Shown: one piece after another, positions 16,694 to 64,000 of the stretch
Layout: every line of letters begins with the position of its first letter
Numbering within the stretch: the first letter of the stretch is position 1
NCBI GenBank assembly: GCA_001780985.1
Contig: MFJV01000001.1
Span: 300,049 to 364,048 of the forward strand
From: Candidatus Gottesmanbacteria bacterium RIFCSPLOWO2_01_FULL_43_11b
GTDB lineage: Bacteria; Patescibacteriota; Microgenomatia; UBA10105; UBA927
Direction: 5' to 3'
Length of the DNA stretch: 64,000 nt
Translations under genes and position numbers: made by a program
Notes under the pieces: generated by a model
What the model saw: the letters and a program-made list of their open reading frames with translations, nothing else
Database searches by the model: none
What the model was told of the DNA's origin: nothing

Positions 16694-16726
16694 CATACAA
16701 AGAATGTTATATTATCCTGTACATAT

Positions 16727-17263: not shown

Positions 17264-18009
17264 TACTTCCGTATCCCAAAGACGCGCTCCATAAAGCCAT
17301 GCTCTACCGGCTCCTCATTGGTCTGTTGGATGCCAAAGATGTGGCAAGAGAGATATTTTTCAAAGGCGGTACCTGTGCTGCTATGCTTGAGTGGCTGGAT
17401 CGGTTCTCCATCGATTTGGACTTTGATCTTTCCCGAAATGCAGACAGGCCCAAGCTGAAACGGCTCCTGAAACGTATATTTAACGCCAATGGATTTCGTG
17501 TTGCCGAAGAAGCCAAAAACGAGCTCTATTTTATTCTGAAATACCAAGCACCACCGGGTACACGAAATAACTTGAAGCTGAGCATTATTGATCTTCCGGT
17601 TCGCGCGAATGTGTACCAGCCACAGTATCTTTCGGATATCGCGCGTTTCGCTGTGTGCCAAACCGTCGAAACCATGTTTGCCAATAAACTCATCGCTGTC
17701 ACCGACCGGTTTAAGAAATATCACACCATCGCTGGAAGAGACATTTATGATATACACTATTTTTTTACCCAAGGATATGGATATAATCAGGAAGTTATTA
17801 CGGAGAGGACGGGAGTGTCGCCAGCCGTATATCTACGTGAGCTTAGCGAATTTATCCGTCAAAAAATAACGGAAAGAATTATTAGTGAGGACCTGAGTTA
17901 CCTCCTGCCGCCTACAAAATTTCAAGTGGCGCGGCGCACACTAAAATCAGAAGTCCTTATCTTTCTTCAGTCCGCAAAATCCCACGCGCCGTTGATACAA
18001 CAAGCCTAA
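17260..18009 (+). CDS. abiEii: AbiEii-family nucleotidyltransferase toxin (start at the internal Met overlapping the AbiEi stop)
   Basis: FFKGGTCAAMLEWLDRFSIDLDFD signature. ATGA overlap with 16727..17263. Confidence 0.75.
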   Translation: MILPYPKDALHKAMLYRLLIGLLDAKDVAREIFFKGGTCAAMLEWLDRFSIDLDFDLSRNADRPKLKRLLKRIFNANGFRVAEEAKNELYFILKYQAPPGTRNNLKLSIIDLPVRANVYQPQYLSDIARFAVCQTVETMFANKLIAVTDRFKKYHTIAGRDIYDIHYFFTQGYGYNQEVITERTGVSPAVYLRELSEFIRQKITERIISEDLSYLLPPTKFQVARRTLKSEVLIFLQSAKSHAPLIQQA

Positions 18010-50317: not shown

Positions 50318-50566
50318 ATGAGCCGAACATATCGAACAATTATTACTAAGGATGATGCTGGTTATCATGGGTGGGTGCCCGCACTGCCGGGTTGTCACAC
50401 GTATGGTAAAACAATCGAAGATACACAAAAAAATCTGAAGGAAGCAATTGAAGGTTGGCTTTTAACACGCGAGGCTCGCCATTGGCCAATACCAGAGGAT
50501 ACTCTGATAGAAACTTTACAAACAGTAACTCTTCCGCCTGGATCCTCTCTTTCGACGTATGCCTAA
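50318..50566 (+). CDS. hicB: HicB-family antitoxin (UPF0150)
   Basis: MSRTYRTIITKDDAGYHGWVPALPGCHTYGKTIEDTQKNLKEAIEGWL. Start trimmed to Met40 of the track ORF 50201..50566. Overlaps hicA by 8 nt. Confidence 0.8.
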   Translation: MSRTYRTIITKDDAGYHGWVPALPGCHTYGKTIEDTQKNLKEAIEGWLLTREARHWPIPEDTLIETLQTVTLPPGSSLSTYA

Positions 50567-50786
50567 ATTGCCCGTCGTTACTGCTCAAAAACTCATCAAA
50601 GTTCTCAAAAAGAAAGGGTTTGTGCTCGACCGCATCCATGGAAGCCACCATATATTCGTCCGAACGCGTGATCGAGTCACTGTGTCCGTACCTGTACATC
50701 GAAGTAAAGACTTAGGTCGAGGCATCACCCGATCAATTCTCGACGACGCGCATATTACCCTAGAAGAACTCCTCAAATTTCTTTAA
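50559..50786 (+). CDS. hicA: HicA-family mRNA-interferase toxin (YcfA-like)
   Basis: LIKVLKKKGFVLDRIHGSHHIFV...VPVHRSKDLGRGITRSIL. Confidence 0.85.
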   Translation: MPKLPVVTAQKLIKVLKKKGFVLDRIHGSHHIFVRTRDRVTVSVPVHRSKDLGRGITRSILDDAHITLEELLKFL

Positions 50787-51119: not shown

Positions 51120-52844
51120 TTGTATGATGAGTTCATGTCTTCAAAATTTTTGATCTCATTCCTCTTTGTCATTGCCTTTCTCCTCCGCCTTCTCCTTGTT
51201 CCCAATCCTGGTTTTGAGGCGGATGTATCATTCTGGAAGTCGTGGGGGCTTGCAACGAGAGATTTTGGCATTGTCGAGGGTATCAAGCAAACGAACAATA
51301 ACTACCCTACTCCCTTTGCCTACACATTGGGGCTCATGGTGAAGCTCTATAGTCTGTTTGCCGATCCGCATAATTTTAACGAATTTTGGCAAAATACCAA
51401 TCTCACGTTTTTAGCCATAAGTAAACTCTTTCCAATTCTTGCTGATCTGGGTATCGCGGCGATTATTTTATACATGGGCCAAAATACCCTCTCTTTGCTT
51501 TTGGCAGTTTTCTACTTATTCAATCCCGTTTCTTTAATTGATGGCGCCTGGTGGGGACAAGTTGACTCCCTCGGCGTATTTATATTTCTTATCGCACTTC
51601 TTCTGTCGCTCAAACGGCAGCCTTTTTGGGCTGGCGCTGTTTTCATGTTATCGATGATGACGAAATTACAGAACATGATTTACGGCCCACTTTTCTTCCT
51701 CTTCATCTGGCAATCTCTTGGATTTGACGGGTTAAGAAAAGCGATACTTGGTGCAACGGTTGGATTTTTTGGGTTGAATATTGAGTTCTTTTTGTCAAAA
51801 AATATGGACCGGGTGATCGCGTCATTAACGTCTAACTACGACTACTTCCCTTGGATGAGCCTCAATGCGTTTAACGTTTGGTGGATTGTTTCAGGAGGCC
51901 ATGGCATGCAGGTATCCGATAAACTACTGGCAATCGGGATTGTCAACGCCAAAACCGTTGGGCTTCTTATGTTTTCCAGCTTTTATCTTTTCGCATTAGT
52001 CCGACAACGGAAAAATCTGCAGAGTTTTTTGGAAAGTTTAATCATTGTCAATGCATCGTTTTTCCTGTTCATGACCGAATCCCATGACCGATATCTCTTC
52101 CCTACATCCGTATTTCTTCTTCTCTGGGCGCCATTTTATAAAAATTTCCGCGTGTTCTCTGTCTTTTATATTCTTTTTTCTCTCGTCTATTTCTACAACC
52201 TCCATAGCGCCCTCGTCTTTAACTACCCAAATAACGGTCTACCGGGGCTTTCCCAATTAATACAACCCACCGTAACAATCACCGCATCGGTCTTACTTAT
52301 CGCGCTATTTGTTATATTTCTTCTCTTTCTCACTCGTTATTCTCTTGCTGTCTTTGCTGTAATTGTTTTAGGAATCACTGCCCTCAACTTTCCTTTATAC
52401 GCCAAACAGCCTATGTCTTTAACAAAATTCACTCCCTACATTAGCACTCAGGATTTTGGTAGCAGGCAAACCAACAAATCAGTCAACAGCAGTTACGGCA
52501 TCAACAGTTGGAATCGTCTTTCCGTCCAGTACATGTTCTATAAGAAAGGCATAGGAACGCACACAAACTCCCGTCATGTCTTTGCTATAAACAGCAAATT
52601 TAAGCGTTTCTCAACTGATTTCGGCGTCGATACGGAATCAGGACCTCAGGCTTCCGTTATTTTTGAAATCTATGGGGACGACAAACTTCTCTTTCGATCC
52701 GAAACAATGAAAAAATACGATTATCCCCGTCATACGGAAGTCAATATCGAAGGGATTAAGTTTCTATCGCTTGTTACAACAGATGCGGGAGATGGAAATA
52801 TCGATGATCATACTGATTGGTTGAACCCAATGCTGTATCCATGA
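51120..52844 (+). CDS. Polytopic membrane glycosyltransferase-like protein with C-terminal NPCBM/NEW2 carbohydrate-binding domain
   Basis: N-terminal ~450 aa multi-TM. C-terminal GIGTHTNSRHVFAINSKFKRFSTDFGVDTESGPQASVIFEIYGDDKLLFRSETM...IEGIKFLSLVTTDAGDGNIDDHTDWLNPML matches the NPCBM pattern (GIG.HA.S...F.L......F...VG.DD.......V.F.V.GDG..L..S..M......V.V...L.L.V.DAGDG...DHADW). Confidence 0.7.
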   Translation: MYDEFMSSKFLISFLFVIAFLLRLLLVPNPGFEADVSFWKSWGLATRDFGIVEGIKQTNNNYPTPFAYTLGLMVKLYSLFADPHNFNEFWQNTNLTFLAISKLFPILADLGIAAIILYMGQNTLSLLLAVFYLFNPVSLIDGAWWGQVDSLGVFIFLIALLLSLKRQPFWAGAVFMLSMMTKLQNMIYGPLFFLFIWQSLGFDGLRKAILGATVGFFGLNIEFFLSKNMDRVIASLTSNYDYFPWMSLNAFNVWWIVSGGHGMQVSDKLLAIGIVNAKTVGLLMFSSFYLFALVRQRKNLQSFLESLIIVNASFFLFMTESHDRYLFPTSVFLLLWAPFYKNFRVFSVFYILFSLVYFYNLHSALVFNYPNNGLPGLSQLIQPTVTITASVLLIALFVIFLLFLTRYSLAVFAVIVLGITALNFPLYAKQPMSLTKFTPYISTQDFGSRQTNKSVNSSYGINSWNRLSVQYMFYKKGIGTHTNSRHVFAINSKFKRFSTDFGVDTESGPQASVIFEIYGDDKLLFRSETMKKYDYPRHTEVNIEGIKFLSLVTTDAGDGNIDDHTDWLNPMLYP

Positions 52845-55054
52845 AAGATAATAAACGAAAAGTGAGTCAAAATTTTTCGCGCGCAATCATCCGAGTCAGC
52901 GAGGGCGTGAGCACGAAAAAATTTTGGGCGAACTTTGTGGGATTCGCACTCCTTCTTTTTTCCATAGGCTTTAACCTGTGGATCTACCGCCTCGAACCCA
53001 CTGCAAAAGTAGATCCGAATGATAATCATTTTCAATTTGCATTAGTTGATCGGACGAACCAAATCTTTGATTTTGCACCTAAAAATTGTTCAAAAAAATT
53101 GTCATTTGTCATTTGTCATTTGTCATTTCTTATTGATCACTGGGTGCCCAATTGGGCTGAAGGCTATAACCTCCCCTACTACTATTCCCACATCCCTCAA
53201 ATTGCTATCGTCGCTTTCTGGCGTTCGTTACATATCGGATCTTTATTTCAGTTTTATCATTGGGTTATTTATTTTCTTCTCTCTCTATTTCCACTTTCTT
53301 TATTTCTTGCACTTCGTATCACAGGACTTTCCTGGATAACAGCCGGGGTCGGAGCATTAATAGGATCTCAAATCTCTACCGACGGCTTCTACGGCCTGGA
53401 TCCAGCTTCATTCCTCTGGCGCGGGTACGGGCTTTCAAGCCAACTCTTTGCCATGGTTTTCTTACCGCTTGCAATTGCATTTGCTCTACGAGGCAAAGTG
53501 ATTCCAACGATCCTCACACTTGCCGCTACCACCGCCGGACATCTTGGAATCGGTATTATTGCATTCATAAGTGTTGGTATTGTAGGATTCCGAAAAGTTT
53601 TGTGGATTTGGGTGGGCGCGGGACTGCTCCTTGCCTACTGGATTATTCCGGCATATCTTCACAATAATTACCATAATTTCTCTGTCTGGGATCCTATCTG
53701 GAAATTTGATTCGTATGGTGCAAAAGAGGTCATCACAAGACTCTTTAACGGCAACCTATTCGACTTCGGAAGATTCCCAATTTTGACAATACTTGTATTG
53801 GTGGGATTGTTTGTAAACCGAAATTTTGCCATTCTATTTATTTTTTGGGTGCTCATGTATTTCGGAAGAACAACGTGGGGGTCACTCATCGACCTTGTTC
53901 CCTTTTTGAAAGAATTTCACCAATCTCGCTTTATCGTCGGAATTCACCTAGCCGGATTGTTTCTTATTCCGATTGGTTTCCAATTTCTCTTTCAAAAATT
54001 AAAAAATATCTTTCTTGTTATCCCTATAATTATTTTATTTATTTTCATGATTTATCCCCAAACGACGCGCTATGCTAAACATAACGATTTTTTGATTAAC
54101 CGCGGCAATGCGGACTATCAAAAAGTGGAAGATGACGTGGATTCTTTATTCTTAAATCTTAAATCTTACCTCTCTGCCCGCCCGGGGAGGGTATTTGCAG
54201 GGAGAGGAGGATCTTGGGGACGTGATTTTCGCGTTGCTGAAACCCCCTATTACATGTTCCTTTCTACACATGGAATTTCAACAGTTTTATGGATGCCGGA
54301 AACATGGTCACCAAGCTCTGATACCGAACAGTTCTTCAGTGAAAATCAACCGAAAGATTACGTTCTATTTAATATTAGATACGTAGTAGCGCCACCCAAT
54401 CAACAACCGCAATCATTCTGGAAATTACTCAAAGAGTCACCCACCTGGAAACTCTATGAAGTTGAAACGGAAGGCTACATATCCTCCGGAGTTCGTCCGG
54501 CTATTGTCAGCAGTTCGAAAGAAAACTTTATTAATCTTGTCCACTTATGGATCCAATCAGACTATCACAAGCAAGGTCTTTACCCGCAGTTAATCTTTGA
54601 CAAAGACTATCCAAAAAATTACGGCCTGCCGAATTTCAGAATGCTCGACGAAGTTACCTATAAAGTTCCGGACGGAAGCACCCACAATCTCTTTTCCGAA
54701 GTTCCCAGTTATATGTTGTCAGTTGACAGTTATCAGTTACCAAAAATTCTTTCTCAGGAATCGGACTCTGATATGGTCTTTAAAGCCAAAGTTGAGGTCA
54801 AAGAAGACTGTAAAGAATGTATTGTCATCCTCAAGCAAACCTTCCACCCGTCCTGGCGTGCCACCATCGATGGTAAGCCTGTCGAACCCATCACCGCCTT
54901 CCCCTTCTTTACCGCGGTCAAACTGGAATCAGCGGGAACACACGAAGTCATCTTTTCCTACCAACCATCGGGGATCAAAATAGCGCTCCTTATCGTTTCC
55001 GTCATCAGTCTGGGCGCTCTCTTCGCCCTCACTTCTACTGGCCAGAACCAGTGA
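52841..55054 (+). CDS. Large polytopic membrane protein (putative GT-C-like) containing a heptamer tandem repeat
   Basis: ATGA overlap with the upstream gene (MKDNKRK start, trimmed from the track ORF 52817..55054). More than 12 TM helices and a C-terminal soluble domain. Its 3' end overlaps the convergent giant gene by 20 nt. Confidence 0.65.
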   Translation: MKDNKRKVSQNFSRAIIRVSEGVSTKKFWANFVGFALLLFSIGFNLWIYRLEPTAKVDPNDNHFQFALVDRTNQIFDFAPKNCSKKLSFVICHLSFLIDHWVPNWAEGYNLPYYYSHIPQIAIVAFWRSLHIGSLFQFYHWVIYFLLSLFPLSLFLALRITGLSWITAGVGALIGSQISTDGFYGLDPASFLWRGYGLSSQLFAMVFLPLAIAFALRGKVIPTILTLAATTAGHLGIGIIAFISVGIVGFRKVLWIWVGAGLLLAYWIIPAYLHNNYHNFSVWDPIWKFDSYGAKEVITRLFNGNLFDFGRFPILTILVLVGLFVNRNFAILFIFWVLMYFGRTTWGSLIDLVPFLKEFHQSRFIVGIHLAGLFLIPIGFQFLFQKLKNIFLVIPIIILFIFMIYPQTTRYAKHNDFLINRGNADYQKVEDDVDSLFLNLKSYLSARPGRVFAGRGGSWGRDFRVAETPYYMFLSTHGISTVLWMPETWSPSSDTEQFFSENQPKDYVLFNIRYVVAPPNQQPQSFWKLLKESPTWKLYEVETEGYISSGVRPAIVSSSKENFINLVHLWIQSDYHKQGLYPQLIFDKDYPKNYGLPNFRMLDEVTYKVPDGSTHNLFSEVPSYMLSVDSYQLPKILSQESDSDMVFKAKVEVKEDCKECIVILKQTFHPSWRATIDGKPVEPITAFPFFTAVKLESAGTHEVIFSYQPSGIKIALLIVSVISLGALFALTSTGQNQ
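53092..53126 (+). repeat. A7 homopolymer followed by (TTGTCAT)x4 heptanucleotide tandem repeat inside a coding sequence
   Basis: caaaaaaattgtcatttgtcatttgtcatttgtcatttc, encoding ...KKLSFVICHLSFL.... Confidence 0.8.
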
Positions 55055-58000
55055 GGCTTTCTATCCATTCAAGCTGCAAGAAAGTCCGAATCAGAATCGG
55101 CGGCTCGATATAGCCGATCCCCCATAATACCAATCCGATGCTCAGAACAGATAAGATCGCCGGAACAAGAAATTTGTAAAAAAAGCCGTTTACGTTTACT
55201 TCAAATATTGCTTCGAGCATTTTTTGATATCCTCGAAACCATGCATCAAGTTTCTGTTGTAACCGCAACATTCTTTCTGCTTGTCTTTTTTGATGCAATT
55301 CAATATTTGATATTCCTTCCATCCAATTACCTAATTTCACTCCAAGCTTATTAAGCATTGGTCTAATATGGGGGGCGACATAATGAGCTGCAATGAGTCC
55401 GAGAGCGGCTACCCCTTGCCCAAATAACATATCCGGGTATGGATGCCCACTATAATCATAAACGGAAGTCCCTGGCAGAAAACTCACTGTATAGGCTATA
55501 TAACCCAAGGAGTGTAATGCCTGTATTACCACAATTGTCCCTAAAGACGACCAAAAACTAACGTTATCCGGAATCTGCTTTCCTGTAATCTTCTTAAGAA
55601 CCTCGTTTGCTGCAAAAAACAACAGTCGAAGAGCAATAAACCCTACTGAAACTTCCAACATATCTCCAATATTACTCACCGCCCATGCGAGTGTTGGATT
55701 TGTAGACAACTGTTGAGCCTGGCTAAATGTCAGTCCATCTTCCCTTACAATCGCAGGATTTATTGGTAGCTGATAAGGCATATTCATTTCCACTGGATAT
55801 AACCTCATATAGCGAAAAAGCTCGAGCGTAATCATGGTGAGCCCAATCAAAAACTCAACAGCTCTTGTCGGGATCAAAATATTGTCTAGCAAAGTTGTTA
55901 TAAAATCGGACTTAATTTTATGGTTCTCGAGGATTTTGGAAACAACCGAGGATATTATCGAGACTTTTTCTTGCTCCGTAAATGGTGGTGCACGGTCCTG
56001 GTATTGGCGAGTGAATGCTTCTTCAACGATCGCAGTAACTGTTTCCCGTGCTACTCCCTCCTCCTTCCAGTTTACTTTTGCAAGCACATCAGCAAAATCC
56101 CGCTCAACGACGGCTTGAAGTTGGGTGATTTGGACTTGGAAATTCGGTTGTCGTGATTGTTTTTGGAACAAACCTTTCACCCTCTCCCACGTCCCCTGTA
56201 TGGCATCCCCGATTGCCAGCATCATTTCGGTAGTACGCGGATTGAAAGCATAGATGGATTCGGAAGAGGGTTTTGATACGGATTGCGTTTTCTTGGTTAT
56301 TACAACACCAACCGCAGGAGCACCCATCGATGTCATATGAAATTGACTCCTACTCATGTCAACTGCAAGATCTGTTCCAAGCAGGTATTTCTCATAACTT
56401 CTCGATGACAAAAATTGTGTTTTGTGAAGTTCTTGCGCTTCTGACAATATTTGTCGAAAATCACGTACCCACTGCAACTTCTTTCCTGTTTTTTTCTCTA
56501 GATATTCTTTTGCAACACCAATGGTAAAAATTCCTTTCAGCGGCTCTGCCGGTACAACTGCAATAAATTCGCCGTTTTCAGCAAGTACCTCATCAAGATT
56601 ATGGAAAAATGCCGATAATTCTGTTTCTGAAAGGTGCTCTAGCGTGTGAGATGCAAAGCCTAGGGTAATCTTTCTATCACCCAGAGTCGAAAGAAGCGGA
56701 TTCGTCGCTGACTCGGCAACATTGGCAGTGATAAAGCGAATGTCTTTTCCTTCACGATTAACGCGGGTTTGTGCTTCGGTAATAGAATTTACATTGATGT
56801 CAAACCCTATCAGACTGATATTTAAAGGCAATTTTACAGCCAGTCTGCTTGTCGGATTTGCAAGATCAAATAGGAAATCTCCTTTGTTGGTACCAAACTC
56901 CGCCACCACATCACCGGACGCAAGAGCTGAAAGTTTCCCCCTCTCCACCATCCATAACTCGCTTTTTCCCCAGGAGCCTGCTTTACTCTGGCCGGGGCGA
57001 CGAGATACTGCTACATCAGCATAATCGCTATCATAGTTAGGTGATTCAGTCGATGTCTCTAATGAAGAGGTTCCAGGGCGATAATCGGTTAAAATTTGAA
57101 GAAGCAATGGTTTAAGAGATTCGGGGTTATCGAAGTTCTTCTTGAGCTCTTCAACAAGAGGAGTGCCGAGACGAGCGAGACGATTCATTCCCCGTCGCTC
57201 GAACGGACTCAAATAGTGAGCAAGGAAATCCCAATCGCTATCTGTTGGATTTTGACTATAAAAATCACGAAGTGCAGTAACCGTTCCGCTCCAAACATCT
57301 TGTGCTAATTGTTGTTGAGCAATTGAGAGATTTACTTCATTGTCAGGATCTACTTCCAGTGAAGTGGTATTGGCTTTGAGCGTAAGATCTGTTTTTGCAA
57401 TGACAGAAATTACCGGTGCAATCGGCAAACTTTCACCGGTAAATGTGTAATGCCCTGACCCACCTGCGATAGCGGTTTTTATTGCGGCAATAATCTCATC
57501 CGTTATTTCGATGTTTCTCGGAAGTTCAATGTAGAAATCGCTCCCACTCGGTCGCCAAAAACCGATGTGTGTTTCTTTTCCGATAATATCTGCAATTGCC
57601 GGTACAGACCGATTCAAAATATATCGTAAGAAATCATTTCCGGAAGCATAACCATACTTGTCGTTAATCCATTTGAGTACTCCCGGAACTTCTATTCGTA
57701 ATAAGTTAAAATTCCCTCCTGATTGATTTTCATCTTCAAGGTGGCTAAGTAAATCGGTCCTATCATGGAAGACTTCAATATTGATGTTTTGTTGGATTCT
57801 TAATATATCGACGTCATTGGATAGTACCGGATCAAACAATATCTCTGAGAAGAACTGCAACAAACCCTGATCCCCTTGGACGCTATCAACAATGTCAACC
57901 ATTTCACGGTGATACGTTTTGAGCCTGTTTGCGAGAAGTCCGGCGGAAAGCACAGGTTGAAGTCCGACATCAACAGTATCTGGCACCTCGCGGGTTATGT

Positions 58001-61000
58001 GCACGGATGCAGGTCGATAGACAATGGCGTCCCCTTCTTTGTAAAGGCTTTTGACTTGGTTTGCGGCAGCCTGAACGCGACTAACCAACGCATCATCAAC
58101 TAAGCTTTGTGTGAGAATGCTGAATTCATCACCACCAGTTCGGACTACAATGTAGTCTTCTCCTAATTCTTTTTCAATTGCCGCAATGACGTCATAAATG
58201 AGGTAATCTCCCACAATATTCGAGGGCTGCCCGCCAACATCGTTTGCGCCGCGGATATTCGTGAAGTCAATCGTCAAGGCGTTGTAGCTATTACCAAGGA
58301 GATACCGAAGCACGAATGATCGGAAGACCGGGATAGCTGACCTGTTATTTTTATATTGGGCTTGAACTTCTTCTGTTATAGCAGGGTCTTGCGGCAAGAT
58401 GGCAGAGGGTAAAACTTTCTGGAAACCAGGATCGATTAATCGGCGCTTAATGAACGAGGTAATTTGATCTGCATTTGGGAGGACGCTGAGCTTATCAAAA
58501 TCAATAGAAAGGTTTTCCAGGACTTTTTCTGTCATAGCATCAACCGATGGTGGCGATCGACCGGTCGGCTGAGGAGTTTGCGGTGTCGCTGGAGGCAGAA
58601 GGCTCGGGAAGAATCGCCCGAGAAACTGCCGAATCGGCGCAATCCATCCTTCCCCTACTTTCTGCAATTCCAAAAGCGGCACGGAAAATTCATAGCGTCG
58701 GGTATTACTTCTTTCAATCCAGTCCTCTTTTGTCCCGACCTTTGCGTAATTCCAAAAGACATAACTATCGCTATATCCAAATTCTGCTGAATCACCACCT
58801 TCTGTTTCTATAATCCCGTCGACCCCAATTTCTCGCATAAAAGTCGTAAGCGCGAGATTCGATGGACTTCCTAACCACTGCAGATAGGAATACCCTTGAA
58901 TATACATTGTGCCAAGGAGATATCGAGGGTCAATTTCTGTAAGTTCACCTGACTCAATCCGGTTATAGATCGAATTCAACAAGCGAGTATATTCAGTTTC
59001 ATGATTGGTGTATAAAGCATGAGTCATTCCGGTTAATGATTTAATATGCTCTAAACGCTCTGGCTTGCGCCCAAACCACCAAGAAATGTACGCTTTCACA
59101 AGGGCCGGAGGAACTCTATTTCGGGCATCGAGTAGGGATGCTCGGTAAGGAATAACTGCAGTTACGAAACCTTCGCCCTCCCCTCGTGTTCTTCCGTATA
59201 ATTTTGCTTGCGTTTGATCATCTGTAGTGTATAGACCCACTCCAAGAGTCTGTCCTGCATCTGCATCGTCGTCTAATTCCTCGTCATAGTTTAAACGCAC
59301 TGAAAGCGGCTTTTTTGACCCGTGCCAAAGTACAATCTCGTCAGGCCGTGGAGAATTAATATCAACCGTCAGTGGATCTGTTTGCCCCAAAACAAGAAGG
59401 GGAACAGCTGCATCATTAATGACAATCTCGCTTACTGTGTTTGTGTTATCAAGTTTCTTTCGTATGGTAAAGGTTTTAAAATCAGGAACATTCGTAATAG
59501 GTGCAGTGGTACTCCCCGTGTCTACTCCCTTCTTGCCAAACAAAGATCTGACTCTATTTGCCGCCTCCGCCTTGATAACTCCCTCTAGCTCCCACAGCGC
59601 CTTCCACCAAAACCCAATAAACTCTCGAGTAAGCGAGCGAGATTTCGCTGGCCCCTGGAAATATTCTTCATATACGGCATCGTATGGCCTCAGCGTATCT
59701 CCCGGAAGAATACCTTGGTTTCGTAAACTCAACTCTTTTTCATAATCAGCATTGTGAGCCTGAATCAAACGTAATCTTGTCTGCCACAAATCTACTTTTC
59801 TCTGTGCAGTAGCAGTAAATGGTATAAGAGCTGGCTGAACCTTGACTGCCCCAGAGTTGCTTTGACCACTTGGGTAGTAGTACTCTATTACATTCTTTCC
59901 TATCGTACTTACAACTGGTCTGCCAGACATATACTCACTGTCACTTTGAAAAGAAGTCAAAACTACTACAACAACTATTTTGTCATTCGGCAGTTTCACT
60001 AAAGCAAAATCGTGCGCAACAAATATTTTATCGGCCGGACTGCGAATATTACCAATCATGTTTGCAACAGCATCTTGGTCAACACCTAGGTCAGTACCGC
60101 TTAGCGTCCATTCTGCATCGTCTATAGAAGACGGTGCGGACATGAAAGACCACAAAAGGTTGGTACTTTCATCTGAAAGTCCTAATCGGTCGGAGGCAAA
60201 AAGTTCCAAGAGTTCGCCGAGTGATTTTGCGGTTACTAATCTGGGAGATACGCTAATGTCTGTGATCCCCCAAGAGGAAAAATTATCCTTGAACGTATAT
60301 CCCTGATGAGATTCTACGAATTCTGTAAGAATTTGTGTGGCTTCTTCGTCGTGATTTACAACCATGGCTGATAGTAATTCACGAATATTTTTCGTACTAT
60401 TTTCTGGAATTGCCGCCATAGCTTCTTCAAAAGGCATTCTTTGATTGTCCACCCACCGCAAAACGCTCATGGCAATTGGTATTTTTACGGTAGAAGCAGC
60501 ATGCACCGGAATATCTTCATTTATTTTTATTGTTTTTGATATATTGTCGTCGAGTTCATACACATACACAGACACCAATCCATCTGTCTGAGAAACGGCA
60601 TCTTGAATAGTTGCCGTTAAAGACTGAAAAGCTTGTTGTTCTGCTATTTCTTGAGCATTTTCTACCTCGAGATTGGTTTCATAAATATCTGTTGAAACAA
60701 TATCTCGAACATATTGATAGTATGCAACTGAATCTTCAACATCTTTTTGTTCGTATGTCCATTCACCCTGTCTATATCGCCCATCCCACGTTGGCAAAGC
60801 TCCTTTACCAAGAAGCACGCTATATGTTTTGAGAAACGGTAAATCGACATCAAGTTTTGTATCGACAGGTAGGAAGGTTATACCCTGAATGCCGGCAGTC
60901 AGATGTGCTAGAAGACCGCTAAGCTCGTTGGCATAGCCTACTCGTCTTTTATCTTTCACTATCTGATCACGAACAAGCATTTCGTAGAGAATCCCCTGAT

Positions 61001-63986
61001 TCAGTTCGCCGTTCGGACCAATCCAAGGTGTATCTGTCATAAAGCTCGAACTATTTTCTAGTTCGAGCATTATGTTTTGAAAATCAGTTAATACGCTAGT
61101 AAACCCACCTTGCGCTACTCCCCGCGCCGCCTGATCAAGGCCAATTATTACAGCAACTTGCCCCATTCGTATTGTTCTTCCAAAATGGCTATTGCCCAAA
61201 AGTCCACTACCTGTTCTTAAACGAACGTACCACTGGAGCTGTTCACCATCCATCGTCTCTGTTTTTCCTTTTTCAAATGCGGTAACCCAAATTGGATTTT
61301 CCTCAGTTCCATAGTTATATTTCAGATCAGCAATCGATGTTATTTCAATTCCATTCGGATACAAACTATCAATCAAATTAATAAATCCATAAAACCCCCC
61401 TAAATTAACTGAGTCAACGGGTCTTCCCAAAAACCACTCATACCGATAGCGGACATTTGTTAGGGGCGCACGCGGATCAGTTTTATCAACTCCCGGTAAC
61501 GCATTGTTTTCATCTATATCAAGCGTATCAGGATCATCGATAGGCTCTGTCCACGTTGATTCATTTATCCATTTCCCATCGGCCATGATGACTCTCCGAG
61601 GAACAAGCATTAGTGATATTTTTCCGGTCTTAGTATTAATAAACAAAACAATATTCTGATCAGTTCGACTCTTGCTAAAGGGCAACTCATTGCCTTCTGT
61701 CCCCATAGCGCTATAGGGACTATCTGCGCTTCGTGCGTCCATACCGAGAATTAATACGGTAACTATGGGATCCTCAAGCATTTTCCTTTTTTCTTCTTCA
61801 GATGGGTTTGGTTTTCCGTCTTTTGAAACCCTTTGCCAAAAACGATCTCCTTCTTCTGCGGCTAATTCAGTTCGGTGACGCACTGCATAGGAATGTAAAG
61901 GTTTAGAAATAAATGCAATGAATGGATTTTGAGCATTACTCGTCTGGTCAAATTCTTGCACAACTGTTTCTTCATATAAAGACTGTGCAGCAGGGACATC
62001 ATAATTAATTGTTTGTACTATGGCCGTCGGCTCTTTTACTGGCATTTGTGGTGTCGGTGTAAATACAACGTTGAGCCAAATGACGGCGCTCAAGAGGCCG
62101 TAAGCAAAAGTAGGGACGCCTATTGTCAAACCGGTGGCCCATTTAATGACATTGATAAATGTCTTACGATTTACAAATTTTTCACGAATCCCATTAACAA
62201 ACGCCTGCGCCCTGTCTCTTAACGACCTGCTTTGGATTTCTTTTAACTCTATTGTTTCTTCTGGTTGCTGCGTCTCAACAATTGTTAATTCCGTTGCTGC
62301 ACGGGTAATAATGTCTTCTCGAAGAGCAGTTAATTCTGCAGTTCTGGCTTCCGCTTCAAGTCTTCTTTGGATTGCTGCCTGTTCTGCAAGACCTTCTGTT
62401 TCAAAAATTTCCTGCCTGGATAATTGACCAAAAATCTGCAATCCTTGTTCTCGCGTCATGGTGGGAAGCTCGGCAACAATCGTTGCAAAATCTATTTCAT
62501 CTGCTTCTTTGAGCATTGCAGCGACAATTTTTCGACGCTCAATTTCAGCTTTTCTATCAGGATACAAAAGACCACGAAGTTCACTTCGAAGAGATGAAGC
62601 TAAACTATTGAGCGTCATACCAAGGGGCGCAATCTGTTCGTTGGTGAACCCGTGACCCTCAAGCGATCTAAGAATAATTACATTGAGTTCTGTTGTTGAT
62701 GCGCCGCGGATGTAAGCTTGCGGATATGCATTATCTTCTGATGCGTAAAGATCAAGGAGTACTTGGCCATAGCGATTTTTCACGTCTTCACTCAAACTTG
62801 CGAGTGCTTCAGTTCTTTTTTGTAATGCTTCAATAAGTAACAATCTATTGTTAACTAAATCTTTCTGTCTCTGCGCTTCTTGAGCTAGTTCAAGAGCTTC
62901 AGCCTCCTGTTTTTGGGTAAACCAGGTGTCCAAATTCGCAGAAAACTCTTCGAGAGCGTTGTTGGTATTCTCAAGCCGATCAACGCTGCGGACTCTGGAC
63001 AGTAACGATCGCTCGGCGAGCATGGAGTTAAGCGCATTCATGAATGAGGCAGGAGTTCGGGGAATTTGCCCGCCGGACGTACGCACATCAATGCCGTTTG
63101 CAACTAAATCCGCATGTACTTTTGTGAGCGCCTCTGAAACTCCTTGCATACCAGAAATCGCTCCTATCTCCTGCAGACGATCAGTGACACCAGAAAGTAG
63201 CAAAACGATTTGATCTCGCAATCCTCCTCTCGCTTGCGCTTGCTCTGCCCTTCGAGCAAGTTCTTCAGCAGAAGGCTCTGTGGAAACAGGAGCAGCAGGT
63301 GGTTTCGGCTCGCTCGAGGGTTCTGTTGATTCTGCTAGTTTTTTCGCCGTGTTGACAACATCAATTTTCACCTGAATTTCATTAATCAAGTCCTGAATTT
63401 CTTTACCCATGCGGAATGCTTTGAAGGCCGGTAAAACGCCGGATTCCAGCGCGTCCTGAAGAGCTTCGAGGGAGGCGGGGCTCCGGAGACGATTGGCTTT
63501 TTGTTGAATTACAGGTAACACTACTTTTTGAGCAATATCTTGTGCCTGGTCAATCGTTTGAGCGGTAAATCGAATTCTCCCAAGGTTTACACCAGCATTC
63601 CTCACGCTCTCAACCAGAGTTTTAAGTTGTTCGCGCAGTTGAATACCCAGATTTTTCGGCACGGGCGGCGCAATTGGTGGTGGTAGAGCTGGGGGAATGA
63701 TATCACTGCTTTGTTTAGCCTGAACAAGTGCGTTAACTGCTTCCGTTTGCTGCTTAATCTCTTCGGTAGTTGTTAATCCGTTGAGCAGTAAAGGATTTTG
63801 ATAATGCTCTTTGAAGTACAAATTATACTCTCTCAACGCGACCCCATATTTGAAAAATTCAACCATCTTTTCTTTCCATTGTGTATTGTCCAAATCAGTA
63901 TCAGATGGAATAACCCGAAGGGAATTTGCGTGAGCATACGGTCCATTACTCCTTATGAGATTATTGATTTTATTGTTCATCGACAC
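55035..63986 (-). CDS. Giant multidomain membrane protein (2983 aa): coiled-coil N-terminal region, TM helix, LCP (LytR-CpsA-Psr) domain, beta-lactamase-like serine-hydrolase domain, GGDEF domain, degenerate GGDEF domain, class-I methyltransferase-like domain, C-terminal TM bundle
   Basis: Uninterrupted 8.95-kb ORF. TM helix at ~62040-62140. LCP motifs VTVLILGMDARS...SRTDQNIVLFINTKTGKISLMLVPRRVIM...VDSVNLGGFYGFINLIDSL (~61290-61770). HAASTVKIPIA SxxK with ADKIF (KTG-like) (~59790-60600). IDFTNIRGANDVGGQPSNIVGDYL...YIVVRTGGDEFSIL (GGDEF at ~58123-58137). WINDKYGYASGNDFL...IGFWRPSGSDFYIEL (~57525-57570). LNISLIGFDIN...LEHL (~56780-56840). Confidence 0.85.
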   Translation of the reverse strand: MSMNNKINNLIRSNGPYAHANSLRVIPSDTDLDNTQWKEKMVEFFKYGVALREYNLYFKEHYQNPLLLNGLTTTEEIKQQTEAVNALVQAKQSSDIIPPALPPPIAPPVPKNLGIQLREQLKTLVESVRNAGVNLGRIRFTAQTIDQAQDIAQKVVLPVIQQKANRLRSPASLEALQDALESGVLPAFKAFRMGKEIQDLINEIQVKIDVVNTAKKLAESTEPSSEPKPPAAPVSTEPSAEELARRAEQAQARGGLRDQIVLLLSGVTDRLQEIGAISGMQGVSEALTKVHADLVANGIDVRTSGGQIPRTPASFMNALNSMLAERSLLSRVRSVDRLENTNNALEEFSANLDTWFTQKQEAEALELAQEAQRQKDLVNNRLLLIEALQKRTEALASLSEDVKNRYGQVLLDLYASEDNAYPQAYIRGASTTELNVIILRSLEGHGFTNEQIAPLGMTLNSLASSLRSELRGLLYPDRKAEIERRKIVAAMLKEADEIDFATIVAELPTMTREQGLQIFGQLSRQEIFETEGLAEQAAIQRRLEAEARTAELTALREDIITRAATELTIVETQQPEETIELKEIQSRSLRDRAQAFVNGIREKFVNRKTFINVIKWATGLTIGVPTFAYGLLSAVIWLNVVFTPTPQMPVKEPTAIVQTINYDVPAAQSLYEETVVQEFDQTSNAQNPFIAFISKPLHSYAVRHRTELAAEEGDRFWQRVSKDGKPNPSEEEKRKMLEDPIVTVLILGMDARSADSPYSAMGTEGNELPFSKSRTDQNIVLFINTKTGKISLMLVPRRVIMADGKWINESTWTEPIDDPDTLDIDENNALPGVDKTDPRAPLTNVRYRYEWFLGRPVDSVNLGGFYGFINLIDSLYPNGIEITSIADLKYNYGTEENPIWVTAFEKGKTETMDGEQLQWYVRLRTGSGLLGNSHFGRTIRMGQVAVIIGLDQAARGVAQGGFTSVLTDFQNIMLELENSSSFMTDTPWIGPNGELNQGILYEMLVRDQIVKDKRRVGYANELSGLLAHLTAGIQGITFLPVDTKLDVDLPFLKTYSVLLGKGALPTWDGRYRQGEWTYEQKDVEDSVAYYQYVRDIVSTDIYETNLEVENAQEIAEQQAFQSLTATIQDAVSQTDGLVSVYVYELDDNISKTIKINEDIPVHAASTVKIPIAMSVLRWVDNQRMPFEEAMAAIPENSTKNIRELLSAMVVNHDEEATQILTEFVESHQGYTFKDNFSSWGITDISVSPRLVTAKSLGELLELFASDRLGLSDESTNLLWSFMSAPSSIDDAEWTLSGTDLGVDQDAVANMIGNIRSPADKIFVAHDFALVKLPNDKIVVVVVLTSFQSDSEYMSGRPVVSTIGKNVIEYYYPSGQSNSGAVKVQPALIPFTATAQRKVDLWQTRLRLIQAHNADYEKELSLRNQGILPGDTLRPYDAVYEEYFQGPAKSRSLTREFIGFWWKALWELEGVIKAEAANRVRSLFGKKGVDTGSTTAPITNVPDFKTFTIRKKLDNTNTVSEIVINDAAVPLLVLGQTDPLTVDINSPRPDEIVLWHGSKKPLSVRLNYDEELDDDADAGQTLGVGLYTTDDQTQAKLYGRTRGEGEGFVTAVIPYRASLLDARNRVPPALVKAYISWWFGRKPERLEHIKSLTGMTHALYTNHETEYTRLLNSIYNRIESGELTEIDPRYLLGTMYIQGYSYLQWLGSPSNLALTTFMREIGVDGIIETEGGDSAEFGYSDSYVFWNYAKVGTKEDWIERSNTRRYEFSVPLLELQKVGEGWIAPIRQFLGRFFPSLLPPATPQTPQPTGRSPPSVDAMTEKVLENLSIDFDKLSVLPNADQITSFIKRRLIDPGFQKVLPSAILPQDPAITEEVQAQYKNNRSAIPVFRSFVLRYLLGNSYNALTIDFTNIRGANDVGGQPSNIVGDYLIYDVIAAIEKELGEDYIVVRTGGDEFSILTQSLVDDALVSRVQAAANQVKSLYKEGDAIVYRPASVHITREVPDTVDVGLQPVLSAGLLANRLKTYHREMVDIVDSVQGDQGLLQFFSEILFDPVLSNDVDILRIQQNINIEVFHDRTDLLSHLEDENQSGGNFNLLRIEVPGVLKWINDKYGYASGNDFLRYILNRSVPAIADIIGKETHIGFWRPSGSDFYIELPRNIEITDEIIAAIKTAIAGGSGHYTFTGESLPIAPVISVIAKTDLTLKANTTSLEVDPDNEVNLSIAQQQLAQDVWSGTVTALRDFYSQNPTDSDWDFLAHYLSPFERRGMNRLARLGTPLVEELKKNFDNPESLKPLLLQILTDYRPGTSSLETSTESPNYDSDYADVAVSRRPGQSKAGSWGKSELWMVERGKLSALASGDVVAEFGTNKGDFLFDLANPTSRLAVKLPLNISLIGFDINVNSITEAQTRVNREGKDIRFITANVAESATNPLLSTLGDRKITLGFASHTLEHLSETELSAFFHNLDEVLAENGEFIAVVPAEPLKGIFTIGVAKEYLEKKTGKKLQWVRDFRQILSEAQELHKTQFLSSRSYEKYLLGTDLAVDMSRSQFHMTSMGAPAVGVVITKKTQSVSKPSSESIYAFNPRTTEMMLAIGDAIQGTWERVKGLFQKQSRQPNFQVQITQLQAVVERDFADVLAKVNWKEEGVARETVTAIVEEAFTRQYQDRAPPFTEQEKVSIISSVVSKILENHKIKSDFITTLLDNILIPTRAVEFLIGLTMITLELFRYMRLYPVEMNMPYQLPINPAIVREDGLTFSQAQQLSTNPTLAWAVSNIGDMLEVSVGFIALRLLFFAANEVLKKITGKQIPDNVSFWSSLGTIVVIQALHSLGYIAYTVSFLPGTSVYDYSGHPYPDMLFGQGVAALGLIAAHYVAPHIRPMLNKLGVKLGNWMEGISNIELHQKRQAERMLRLQQKLDAWFRGYQKMLEAIFEVNVNGFFYKFLVPAILSVLSIGLVLWGIGYIEPPILIRTFLQLEWIESLTGSGQ

Positions 63987-64000
63987 TACTCCTCTATTAT

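What the first reader, a model, noticed from the sequence alone, without database searches (positions are those of the whole stretch)
56540..58420. Canonical GGDEF domain followed by a degenerate GGDEF-like copy and a methyltransferase-like domain inside the giant envelope protein
IDFTNIRGANDVGGQPSNIVGDYL...EDYIVVRTGGDEFSIL is a textbook diguanylate-cyclase core (57950-58420). About 200 aa later WINDKYGYASGNDFL...IGFWRPSGSDFYIEL repeats the fold with the signature degraded to SGSDF (57430-57800). Active plus degenerate GGDEF pairs often act as c-di-GMP or GTP sensor modules. A class-I SAM-methyltransferase-like segment (LNISLIGFDIN...LEHL, 56540-56940) and a C-terminal multi-TM bundle follow. 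Nucleotide-second-messenger domains embedded in a 3000-aa LCP-containing envelope protein are unusual, and more so in a reduced CPR-type genome. The sidedness of these domains depends on an uncertain TM count.
Basis: partly seen in the sequence, partly recalled or inferred. Interest (0 to 1): 0.6.

Follow-up and report, generated by a model that had tools for sequence, protein, structure and literature searches.

The report
Double GGDEF cassette in giant protein
The flagged stretch is real, but it is one copy of an unnamed two-GGDEF-domain enzyme-like module found mainly in tiny CPR bacteria, here fused with a methyltransferase into the tail of a 7,182-residue membrane protein that the window cuts in half.

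Summary
All three features are present at the stated coordinates and are well beyond chance. The framing needs three corrections.

1. The ORF is not about 3,000 aa. Its frame runs off the window end, and an identical public contig calls a 7,182-aa product. The window holds only the C-terminal 42%. The organism is Candidatus Gottesmanbacteria (CPR).

2. The two GGDEF-like domains are not a chance pair. With a C-terminal helical subdomain carrying an invariant (K)RG motif, they form one conserved module of about 480 aa (window 57117-58559). It occurs as stand-alone soluble proteins of about 500 aa at a housekeeping locus (transketolase, class-Ib tRNA synthetase). It also occurs as a cassette in other giant proteins. 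Pfam and NCBIfam see only weak GGDEF hits.

3. Domain 1 keeps every catalytic residue family-wide. Domain 2 keeps nucleotide-contact residues but never the fourth-position Glu. This favours a single-chain, asymmetric cyclase-type enzyme over a sensor.

The methyltransferase is a separate cassette with borderline Pfam support. No transmembrane segment separates the LCP and beta-lactamase-like domains from the GGDEF and methyltransferase domains, so which side of the membrane they face stays unresolved. No EAL, HD-GYP or PilZ gene lies in the window.

The parts
55035..64000 (-). C-terminal 2,987 codons of a giant gene that continues beyond the window. It is called as a 7,182-aa product on an identical public contig.
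   Evidence: There is no in-frame stop between 63987 and 64000. The frame stays open for 351 further codons in L017, which is identical to window 52841-64000. Gene call of 7,182 aa. The ATG at 63980 with GAGGAG upstream is therefore internal.
62061..62138 (-). Hydrophobic transmembrane helix (aa 617-642 in window numbering). It separates a coiled-coil-rich region from the enzyme-domain region.
   Evidence: Kyte-Doolittle score 1.72. It is one of only two segments that pass a crude Hessa-scale sum. The N-side flank has net charge about +4 and the C-side flank about 0.
61203..61667 (-). LytR-CpsA-Psr (LCP) domain.
   Evidence: Pfam PF03816 scores 30.2 bits against a cut-off of 24.6. A weak alignment to TagT includes the RTD and YVRxR motifs.
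59955..60572 (-). Class-A beta-lactamase / PBP-like domain.
   Evidence: Pfam PF13354 scores 58.4 bits, E 8.6e-16. SxxK (STVK) is present. The SDN and KTG motifs are not recognisable by eye.
58710..59516 (-). Unassigned domain with an ADP-ribosyltransferase/PARP-like hint (LWHGS ... GVGLYTT).
   Evidence: Pfam PARP scores only E 0.11. There is no PDB sequence hit. The domain is 43% identical over 276 aa to the C-terminus of giant protein P0001, where it follows rather than precedes the GGDEF module.
57117..58559 (-). The whole tandem-GGDEF module (aa 1810-2290), equivalent to an entire stand-alone family member.
   Evidence: HMMER against 1.84 billion representatives gave 59 hits at E<1e-3 and 26 at E<1e-10, most spanning query positions 1-440. 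BLASTP alignments start at aa 1810-1840. The AlphaFold model of aa 1850-2300 is a confident single body (pLDDT 91.5, pTM 0.87).
57987..58319 (-). GGDEF domain 1, with an intact signature: D1907, N1915, G1926-D1927, R1949, G1951-G1952-D1953-E1954-F1955.
   Evidence: Pfam scores. The family profile against solved diguanylate cyclases gives E 3.6e-10. Conservation table.
57390..57788 (-). GGDEF domain 2, half-degenerate. It keeps E2099, K2105, N2108, G2116-N2117 and R2145. The signature reads SGSDF (family consensus RRGGDF[FY]).
   Evidence: Pfam 16.7 bits. hhalign of domain 1 against domain 2 gives E 2.7e-6 and aligns D104 with D301 and E105 with F302. Conservation tables.
57087..57350 (-). C-terminal helical subdomain of the module, carrying the motif [FL]NP[FY]DKRGxxRL (here LSPFERRGMNRL).
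   Evidence: R416 is invariant in 26/26 members, G417 in 25/26, and position 415 is K or R in 24/26. The model is helical over residues 365-450.
56937..57086 (-). Ser/Thr-rich linker between the module and the methyltransferase.
   Evidence: The composition is visible in the sequence. pLDDT is below 30 in a model that is poor overall. No homologue aligns here.
56547..56918 (-). Class-I SAM-methyltransferase-like domain.
   Evidence: Pfam Methyltransf_25 scores 28.6 against 27 and Methyltransf_11 scores 25.3 against 21.2. The only close relative is the fragment P0003 (50% identity), which carries precomputed Methyltransf_23/25/12 hits. Motif I reads EFGTNKG, and an Asp ends beta-2 (LIGFDIN).
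55911..56138 (-). An element of about 75 aa that lies just before the C-terminal hydrophobic region. It is shared with giant protein P0004.
   Evidence: BLASTP gives 49% identity to two places in P0004, one of them directly upstream of that protein's TM cluster.
55107..55880 (-). C-terminal hydrophobic region: one strong TM (aa 2939-2957) and marginal helices near aa 2703, 2779, 2818 and 2853.

Best explanation
Window 57117-58559 (minus strand) encodes one copy of a conserved but unnamed module of about 480 residues. Its order is GGDEF-fold domain 1, a helical linker, GGDEF-fold domain 2, and a helical subdomain with an invariant (K)RG motif.

The module belongs to a family centred on CPR bacteria (Microgenomates/Patescibacteria). 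Family members occur as stand-alone soluble proteins of about 500 aa at a housekeeping locus, and as a movable cassette inside giant multi-domain membrane proteins.

It most likely works as a single-chain, asymmetric GGDEF pseudo-dimer, as follows.
- Domain 1 is the catalytic half-site. It has the metal-binding Asp in beta-1, the Asn and Asp that read guanine, and Arg-x-Gly-Gly-Asp-Glu-Phe.
- Domain 2 holds a second nucleotide, either as acceptor substrate or as allosteric ligand. It cannot catalyse its own bond because the fourth-position Glu is always missing.
- The invariant C-terminal (K)RG motif probably supplies the phosphate-binding basic residues that canonical GGDEF domains carry in their last helix.
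- The substrate is probably GTP.
- The product is c-di-GMP if two modules pair their domain 1 sites, and otherwise a single-bond product such as pppGpG.

What is shown: the fold, the homology, the conservation pattern and the family distribution. What is inferred: catalysis, substrate, product and the role of the KRG motif.

The methyltransferase is an independent class-I SAM-dependent cassette joined by a disordered linker. It is not part of the conserved module.

Both sit in the C-terminal 42% of a 7,182-aa mosaic protein of Candidatus Gottesmanbacteria. They lie on the same side of the membrane as the LCP and beta-lactamase-like domains.
For: The family exists:
- 59 hits at E<1e-3, most aligned over query positions 1-440.
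- Members are either 485-645 aa or 2,884-7,844 aa.

The stand-alone members are soluble. None has a TM-grade hydrophobic segment or an N-terminal hydrophobic stretch on a hydropathy scan.

Conserved synteny of the stand-alone genes:
- Transketolase lies next to the gene in L001, L002, L003, L005 and L011.
- A class-Ib aminoacyl-tRNA synthetase lies next to it in L003, L005, L011 and L013.

Taxa with members are Ca. Gottesmanbacteria, Microgenomates and Patescibacteria.

Conservation in 26 members:
- Domain 1: D58 26/26, N66 24/26, D78 25/26, R100 25/26, D104 26/26, E105 23/26.
- Domain 2: acid at position 250 in 25/26, K256 25/26, N259 25/26, G267 26/26, R296 24/26, D/E301 22/26. Position 302 is never Glu.
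- C-terminal motif: R416 26/26, G417 25/26.

The two domains are homologous to each other: hhalign E 2.7e-6.

Structure:
- The AlphaFold model has pLDDT 91.5 and pTM 0.87, so it is one compact body.
- The top PDB matches are active diguanylate cyclases. Cas10/Csm1, which also has two palm domains, appears at E 4e-4.
- The family profile against solved cyclases gives E 3.6e-10.
- 17 of 26 members hit PF00990.

The giant-embedded copies keep the Asp-Glu pair even where the glycines have drifted (GDEH, SDEH).

Methyltransferase.

Gene length and organism.
Against: - No biochemical data exist for any member.
- The Pfam match to domain 1 lacks profile positions 1-31 and 133-161. These carry the DxLT start and the AKxxGRN helix (PleD K442/R446, from my own knowledge of the family), so canonical phosphate contacts may be missing.
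- I could not inspect the model coordinates, so I do not know whether the two half-sites face each other.
- One complete catalytic site per chain cannot by itself make a cyclic dinucleotide.
- No EAL, HD-GYP or PilZ gene lies in the window.
- The window copy of domain 2 is more degraded than the family consensus (RPSGSDF against RRGGDF).
- Hydropathy plus the positive-inside rule place the module on the LCP side of the membrane, nominally outside the cell, where GTP and SAM are not expected.
Confidence: 0.5

Rival explanations
1. Sensor reading. The pair does not synthesise anything. It is a nucleotide (GTP or c-di-GMP) binding switch that regulates neighbouring domains of the giant protein, in the way degenerate GGDEF domains regulate EAL domains.
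For: Domain 2 keeps nucleotide-contact residues while lacking a full catalytic set. The Pfam match to domain 1 is truncated at both ends. No c-di-GMP turnover or effector genes lie nearby.
Against: Domain 1 keeps the complete metal-binding and catalytic set across the family, including the Asp-Glu pair in otherwise drifted giant copies. A pure binding role would not require this. Neither domain has an RxxD I-site (sequence). Stand-alone members have no output domain to regulate.
Confidence: 0.2
2. Exported, partner-cell-directed effector array. The stretch from the LCP domain to the methyltransferase lies outside the Gottesmanbacteria cell. The NAD-, GTP- and SAM-type domains act on or in a host or prey cell, whose cytoplasm would supply the cofactors.
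For: No TM segment lies between the LCP or beta-lactamase-like domains and the GGDEF module and methyltransferase. A topology that satisfies the positive-inside rule at the helix at aa 620-642 and at the last three C-terminal helices puts aa 643-2774 outside (my reading). The window also encodes a pilin-like protein and a 3,232-aa collagen/LamG surface protein. Giant proteins of Omnitrophota have been proposed to act on prey cell walls. The module evolves fast relative to neighbouring housekeeping genes: 25-55% identity against about 72%.
Against: Stand-alone homologues have no signal peptide and sit among housekeeping genes. In the giant protein P0001 the module sits in a region with an FHA domain, which is typically cytoplasmic. 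No translocation device was identified. The N-terminal 4,199 residues are unseen, and the marginal helix at aa 2703-2727 would flip the prediction.
Confidence: 0.15
3. Decayed passenger domains. The GGDEF-like and methyltransferase-like segments are relics of gene fusions and now serve only as structural filler in a very long scaffold.
For: Scores are borderline: domain 2 is below the Pfam cut-off and the methyltransferase is barely above it. Motif I of the methyltransferase reads GTNKG instead of GxGxG. Some giant copies have drifted signatures (AGEFGDEH, SSGDEH, ELSDEH).
Against: In this protein domain 1 has every canonical residue. The family shows invariant positions across sequences only 20-29% identical. 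The model is confidently folded. The methyltransferase is 50% identical to its only relative, with long invariant blocks.
Confidence: 0.1

Closest known systems
Canonical GGDEF diguanylate cyclases (PleD, WspR, T. maritima TM1788, DosC)
   Same: They share the fold and the core sequence. The family profile hits them at E 3.6e-10 and they are the best Foldseek matches. Domain 1 has the beta-1 Asp, the Asn and Asp guanine contacts, and RxGGDEF.
   Different: Only profile positions 32-132 of 161 match. There is no RxxD I-site and no sensor domain. Two GGDEF folds are fused in one chain and the second always lacks the fourth-position Glu. An extra helical subdomain with an invariant KRG motif is present. 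Canonical enzymes are homodimers of two equivalent half-sites.
Degenerate GGDEF domains used as nucleotide sensors (for example the GTP-binding GGDEF of GGDEF-EAL phosphodiesterases such as C. crescentus PdeA; from my own knowledge)
   Same: Domain 2 resembles them: the signature is degraded while the base and phosphate-contact positions are kept.
   Different: The partner here is a catalytically intact GGDEF domain, not an EAL domain. The arrangement is a fixed module with stand-alone members that have no output domain.
Single-chain or heterodimeric palm/cyclase pairs with one dead site (Cas10/Csm1 Palm1-Palm2; class III adenylyl cyclase C1-C2)
   Same: The architectural logic is the same: two homologous cyclase/palm domains in one unit, only one of them fully catalytic, followed by a helical domain. 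Csm1 structures appear in the fold search over 420-500 aligned columns (E 4e-4).
   Different: The TM-score is only about 0.21. The intact signature is in the first domain here rather than the second. There is no HD domain, no CRISPR context and no PADLOC hit. The resemblance is an analogy, not shown membership.
Giant mosaic membrane proteins of Omnitrophota and Actinobacteria ('Archaeovorins' and relatives)
   Same: These are very long proteins that mix cell-wall-active domains with GGDEF, methyltransferase, HD and other cytoplasm-type domains. Their topology is also unresolved.
   Different: This protein comes from a CPR genome of about 1 Mb. No pilZ gene lies downstream (the downstream gene is convergent). 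Its GGDEF part is the tandem module, and tandem modules are not described in those papers as far as the passages I read go.

Membership tests
Pfam GGDEF (PF00990) | Domain 1 scores above the gathering threshold (23.8 bits) | tested here: met
   27.5 bits for aa 1850-2040 alone, 34.3 bits in the full ORF and 40.2 bits for the module. The match covers profile positions 32-132 of 161.
Pfam GGDEF (PF00990) | Domain 2 scores above the gathering threshold | tested here: not met
   16.7 bits, E 0.0065. Homology is nevertheless supported by hhalign of domain 1 against domain 2 (E 2.7e-6) and by family-profile hits to 6eib and PleD through the domain 2 part.
Active diguanylate cyclase | GG[DE]EF signature, beta-1 metal-binding Asp, and the Asn and Asp that contact guanine | tested here: met
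   Domain 1 has D1907, N1915, D1927, R1949 and GGDEF at 1951-1955. Domain 2 has SGSDF, so the fourth-position Glu is absent.
Active diguanylate cyclase | C-terminal helix Lys/Arg that bind GTP phosphates (PleD K442/R446, AKxxGRN) and the N-terminal DxLT start | tested here: inconclusive
   The Pfam match stops at profile position 132 and starts at 32, so these elements are not detectable by sequence. The invariant (K)RG motif at aa 2264-2266 might substitute for them.
Active diguanylate cyclase | Two catalytically competent half-sites brought together (homodimer) | not testable with these tools
   Within one chain only domain 1 is complete. Oligomeric state is unknown.
Product-inhibited GGDEF / c-di-GMP receptor GGDEF | RxxD I-site upstream of the signature | tested here: not met
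   In domain 1 the positions equivalent to PleD R359 and D362 are G and Y (KELGEDYIVVRTGGDEF). No RxxD is present in domain 2 either.
c-di-GMP signalling system | Partner EAL or HD-GYP phosphodiesterase, or PilZ-type effector, encoded with it | tested here: not met
   None was found among 40 ORFs of 150 aa or more scanned with Pfam. None was found in the precomputed Pfam lists for the genes called between 38.6 and 65 kb. A six-frame motif scan also found none. The rest of the roughly 1.02-Mb genome could not be searched.
Class I SAM-dependent methyltransferase | Profile score above the curated cut-off | tested here: met
   Methyltransf_25 scores 28.6 against 27 and Methyltransf_11 scores 25.3 against 21.2. 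Methyltransf_12, _31 and _23 score just below their cut-offs.
Class I SAM-dependent methyltransferase | Motif I (GxGxG) and an acidic residue at the end of beta-2 | tested here: inconclusive
   Motif I reads E-F-G-T-N-K-G, so the middle Gly is replaced. This is conserved in P0003. An Asp is present in LIGFDIN. The AlphaFold model is too poor to judge (pLDDT 43).
Cas10-type two-palm cyclase | Palm1-Palm2 pair with GGDD, an HD domain and a CRISPR/Csm-Cmr context | tested here: not met
   Foldseek hits to 6ifl_A and 6o74_A have E 4e-4 but TM-score 0.21. There is no PADLOC hit and no cas genes in the window.
LytR-CpsA-Psr (LCP) phosphotransferase | Profile score above the cut-off, and an extracytoplasmic domain following a TM anchor | tested here: met
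   PF03816 scores 30.2 bits against 24.6. The TM helix at aa 617-642 lies about 130 aa upstream. Catalytic competence was not tested.

The most novel reading that the evidence does not exclude
The tandem module is a new kind of single-chain, intrinsically asymmetric GGDEF enzyme. One live and one half-dead site are locked together by a KRG-bearing helical domain. It makes something other than c-di-GMP, such as linear pppGpG, a mixed dinucleotide or a nucleotidylated acceptor. It would be the main GGDEF-type enzyme of many CPR bacteria. In the giant protein it would be displayed or delivered, together with ART-like and methyltransferase cassettes, to act on the partner cell.
Probability: 0.15. 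Interest if true: 0.8.

Novelty: new variant of a known kind. Interest (0 to 1): 0.5.

Why it matters
Whether CPR/Patescibacteria use GGDEF-type nucleotide signalling at all is essentially unexplored. My searches of the held literature found nothing on it.

This work defines a compact, confidently modelled family of about 500 aa, with stand-alone members that could be expressed and assayed directly. That makes the question testable.

The family also offers a natural case of a covalently fused, asymmetric GGDEF pair. This bears on how diguanylate cyclase half-sites cooperate.

For giant-protein biology it adds a CPR example. It sharpens the unresolved paradox that cofactor-dependent 'cytoplasmic' enzymes sit on the same membrane side as cell-wall enzymes.

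Practically, it shows that the public annotation under-calls the domain (GGDEF is recorded only as 'faint') and that the window view under-called the gene by 4,199 residues.

Tried and rejected
Searches that found nothing useful:
- The word-index homologue search with the full ORF found nothing.
- The same search with family alignment A1 returned only P0048.
- The same search with the methyltransferase region returned only P0003.
- The search for related loci failed or found nothing with A1, A2 and A3 in genome contigs and with the module in metagenome contigs. I replaced it with a degenerate DNA pattern for [FL]NP[FY]DKRGxxRL. That pattern gave 6 true loci of 8 in GTDB genomes and 2 in metagenomes.
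- Exact look-ups of the giant product with either apparent start failed. The reason was that the gene is not complete in the window.

- The AlphaFold model of the methyltransferase, built from two sequences, was unusable (pLDDT 43), so I ran no fold search on it.
- PADLOC gave no hit for the module, the ART-like domain or stand-alone members. I therefore dropped a defence-system reading.
- PDB sequence searches gave nothing for the ART-like or methyltransferase segments.

Readings I considered and rejected:
- A phage or mobile-element origin for the giant gene. The surrounding genes are a cell-surface glycan cluster of a Gottesmanbacteria chromosome.
- The intein in P0018 as a toxin-release HINT domain. 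It looks like an ordinary intein inside a fragment of another giant protein.
- The 'uncultured Gammaproteobacteria' label for L003. Its neighbouring aaRS is 67-72% identical to that of the MAG contig L011 (GCA_016201695.1), so the label is probably a binning error.

Full report
**What is in the window.** The finding lies in a minus-strand ORF listed as 55035..63986, 2,983 codons. All quoted peptides are at the stated places. Pfam on the ORF gives five hits:
- LytR_cpsA_psr: aa 774-928, 30.2 bits when scanned as a segment.
- Beta-lactamase2: aa 1139-1344, 58.4 bits.
- GGDEF, two stretches.
- Methyltransf_25 and Methyltransf_11.

Scanned alone, the first GGDEF segment scores 27.5 bits (gathering score 23.8) over profile positions 32-132 of 161. 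The second scores 16.7 bits (E 0.0065). Methyltransf_25 and Methyltransf_11 just clear their cut-offs (28.6 against 27, and 25.3 against 21.2). However, 'textbook' overstates domain 1, and domain 2 is sub-threshold on its own.

**The gene is much longer than the window shows.**
- The frame has no stop between 63987 and 64000.
- A public ENA contig (ERZ28563625, scaffold_59) is identical to the window over 21,485 bases, with 0 mismatches.
- On that contig the gene is called with a 7,182-aa product.
- In locus L017, which matches window 52841-64000 exactly, the frame stays open for 351 further codons.

The ATG at 63980 with an upstream GAGGAG is therefore internal. The window holds only the C-terminal 42% of the protein, and full-length numbering equals window numbering plus 4,199.

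**Organism and surroundings.** Exact matches of window proteins to NCBI entries place the window in a Candidatus Gottesmanbacteria genome (locus tags A3A79_018xx-019xx) on a contig of 1,020,299 bp. The surroundings are a cell-surface glycan cluster:
- GT2, GT4 and GT-C/PMT_2 glycosyltransferases.
- RmlD, an epimerase and a DegT aminotransferase.
- Methyltransferases and hexapeptide acyltransferases.
- A pilin-like gene and a second giant ORF with collagen repeats and a LamG domain.

**The two GGDEF-like domains are one conserved module.** An exhaustive HMMER search with aa 1850-2560 against 1.84 billion representatives found 59 proteins at E<1e-3 and 26 at E<1e-10. Most align across query positions 1-440 as a single stretch. 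The hits fall into two size classes:
- Proteins of 485-645 aa that consist of little else.
- Giant proteins of 2,884-7,844 aa.

BLASTP shows that the homology starts at aa 1810-1840, so the unit is aa 1810-2290. The methyltransferase region found only one relative, the fragment P0003. It is therefore not part of the module.

**Conservation within the module.** In a 26-member alignment, pairwise identity to the window copy is 20-29% for all but one member (the nearest, P0001, is 43%), yet key positions are fixed.
- Domain 1: D58 26/26, N66 24/26, D78 25/26, R100 25/26, D104 26/26, E105 23/26.
- Domain 2: acid at position 250 in 25/26, K256 25/26, N259 25/26, G267 26/26, R296 24/26, D/E301 22/26. 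The position equivalent to the fourth signature residue is hydrophobic and never Glu.
- C-terminal helical part: [FL]NP[FY]DKRGxxRL, with R416 invariant.

Further support:
- A profile comparison of domain 1 against domain 2 gives probability 88.5% and E 2.7e-6, and aligns the key residues one to one.
- The family profile hits solved diguanylate cyclases at E 3.6e-10 through domain 1. It hits 6eib and PleD at 1e-4 to 1e-3 through domain 2.
- AlphaFold2 with this alignment gives pLDDT 91.5 and pTM 0.87 for aa 1850-2300, with two beta-alpha-alpha-beta-beta-alpha-beta cores and helical linkers.
- Foldseek against the PDB returns GGDEF cyclases first (E 7e-6, about 155 aligned residues, target TM-score 0.5-0.6). 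Cas10/Csm1 follows at E 4e-4 over 420-500 columns with TM-score 0.21.
- 17 of the 26 members hit PF00990 at E<=0.01, and no other Pfam family recurs.
- NCBIfam has nothing specific and PADLOC nothing.

**Where the family lives.** A degenerate DNA pattern for the C-terminal motif recovered true members in several places:
- Ca. Gottesmanbacteria and Microgenomates MAGs, embedded in giant ORFs.
- A Patescibacteria MAG, stand-alone.
- Three contigs labelled 'uncultured Gammaproteobacteria'. One of these (L003) has an aaRS 67-72% identical to that of the MAG contig L011 (GCA_016201695.1), so its label is probably a binning error.

The stand-alone genes show no TM-grade hydrophobic segment and no N-terminal hydrophobic stretch on a hydropathy scan. 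They sit next to transketolase (L001, L002, L003, L005, L011) and a class-Ib aminoacyl-tRNA synthetase (L003, L005, L011, L013). The modules themselves are only 25-55% identical where the neighbouring synthetases are about 72% identical, so the module evolves fast but keeps its key residues.

Giant-embedded copies cluster together in a rough neighbour-joining tree, with the window copy next to P0001 and P0004 (no support values).

Other domains co-occur in the giant proteins but in a different order:
- The ART-like domain of the window protein (aa 1491-1759) is 43% identical to the C-terminus of P0001.
- P0005, a Microgenomates giant, has a VanY peptidase.
- P0001 has an FHA domain.

**Mechanism.** Established knowledge of GGDEF enzymes, from my own knowledge of the PleD and WspR literature, is as follows:
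- Each domain binds one GTP.
- The beta-1 Asp and the signature carboxylates bind the metals.
- An Asn and an Asp read the guanine.
- Two loaded domains must meet to form the two bonds of c-di-GMP.

Here one chain carries one complete site and one site that has lost the fourth-position Glu in every member. All of this is inside a confidently predicted rigid body. The best-supported reading is a single-chain asymmetric pseudo-dimer with these features:
- Domain 1 catalyses.
- Domain 2 presents or senses a second nucleotide.
- The invariant KRG motif may replace the phosphate-binding Lys/Arg of the canonical last helix, which the Pfam match does not cover.
- GTP is the likely substrate, because the guanine-reading Asp is kept.

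The product cannot be decided. It would be c-di-GMP only if two modules pair their domain 1 sites. Otherwise it would be a single-bond product such as pppGpG. Catalysis, substrate and product are inferences, and I could not open the model coordinates to check the geometry.

It does not explain the strict conservation of the domain 1 catalytic set, nor the absence of an I-site.

**Sidedness.** In the visible 3,339 residues only two segments pass a crude Hessa-scale test: aa 620-642 and aa 2939-2957. Four further C-terminal helices are marginal. No TM segment lies between aa 643 and about aa 2700. The LCP, beta-lactamase-like, ART-like, GGDEF and methyltransferase domains therefore share one side.

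Evidence that this side is outside:
- Flanking charges make the N-side of helix 620-642 cytoplasmic.
- A topology that also satisfies the positive-inside rule at the last three helices puts aa 643-2774 outside, provided the marginal helix 2703-2727 does not span the membrane.
- An outside location fits the LCP and PBP-like domains.

Evidence that this side is inside:
- An outside location clashes with the need for GTP, SAM and probably NAD.
- The stand-alone homologues are cytoplasmic.
- The module shares P0001 with an FHA domain, which is typically cytoplasmic.

With 4,199 N-terminal residues unseen, the question is open. The same paradox is described for Omnitrophota giant proteins.

**Partners.** No EAL, HD-GYP or PilZ gene was found in three checks:
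- 40 ORFs of 150 aa or more scanned with Pfam.
- Precomputed Pfam lists for the genes called between 38.6 and 65 kb.
- A six-frame motif scan.

The gene downstream of the giant gene is convergent. This differs from the pilZ genes reported downstream of Omnitrophota giant genes. The rest of the genome could not be searched.

**Verdict.** The thing is a new, unnamed variant of the GGDEF family: a tandem, asymmetric, CPR-centred module. In this window it is used as a cassette, next to an independent methyltransferase cassette, in a 7,182-aa mosaic membrane protein. Interest is moderate. GGDEF and methyltransferase domains in giant proteins are already on record, but the tandem family, its stand-alone housekeeping-locus members and the sidedness paradox are worth a follow-up.

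Noticed in passing
window 63987-64000 and beyond (L017 21161-22214): The giant ORF runs off the window. An identical ENA contig calls it at 7,182 aa, so 4,199 N-terminal residues are unseen. Only Beta-lactamase2 and a 'faint' GGDEF hit are on record for the whole product.
   Followed up: yes
window 58710-59516 (-), aa 1491-1759: An unassigned domain with H-Y-E-like ADP-ribosyltransferase hints (LWHGS, GVGLYTT). Pfam PARP scores only E 0.11. It is 43% identical to the C-terminus of giant protein P0001, where the domain order is reversed.
   Followed up: partly
window 59955-60572 (-), aa 1139-1344: The beta-lactamase/PBP-like domain keeps SxxK (STVK). By eye it lacks recognisable SDN and KTG motifs, so it may bind rather than cleave peptidoglycan stems.
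   Followed up: no
window 960-10658 (+): A second giant ORF (3,232 aa) has long collagen triple-helix repeats (216.8 bits) and Laminin_G_3 domains. This explains the 64% GC and strong AT skew at 2-4 kb. An ORF matching the N-terminal SAM-like domain of phage integrases lies directly upstream (323-970).
   Followed up: partly
window 50318-50786 (+): A HicB-like / HicA toxin-antitoxin pair sits between the glycan cluster and the NPCBM-domain gene (from the precomputed Pfam lists for L016 and L017).
   Followed up: no
window 16031-18009 (+): Two adjacent AbiEii-type nucleotidyltransferase toxin genes.
   Followed up: no
window 55911-56138 (-), aa 2617-2692: An element of about 75 aa just before the C-terminal hydrophobic region. 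It recurs twice in giant protein P0004 (49% identity), once directly before that protein's TM cluster. It may be a conserved juxtamembrane unit of these giant proteins.
   Followed up: partly
P0018 (789-aa fragment of a related giant protein): It carries an intein (TGNHPY ... AHN-T junction) upstream of its tandem-GGDEF module.
   Followed up: no
L001, L002, L003, L005, L011, L013: Stand-alone tandem-GGDEF genes keep the same neighbours (transketolase, class-Ib aminoacyl-tRNA synthetases) while diverging to 25-55% identity. The neighbouring synthetases stay at about 72% identity. This is a fast-evolving gene at a stable housekeeping locus.
   Followed up: partly
L003, L009, L010: Three GTDB contigs labelled 'uncultured Gammaproteobacteria' carry family members. 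The neighbours of L003 closely match those of the MAG contig L011 (GCA_016201695.1), so at least that label looks like a binning error.
   Followed up: partly
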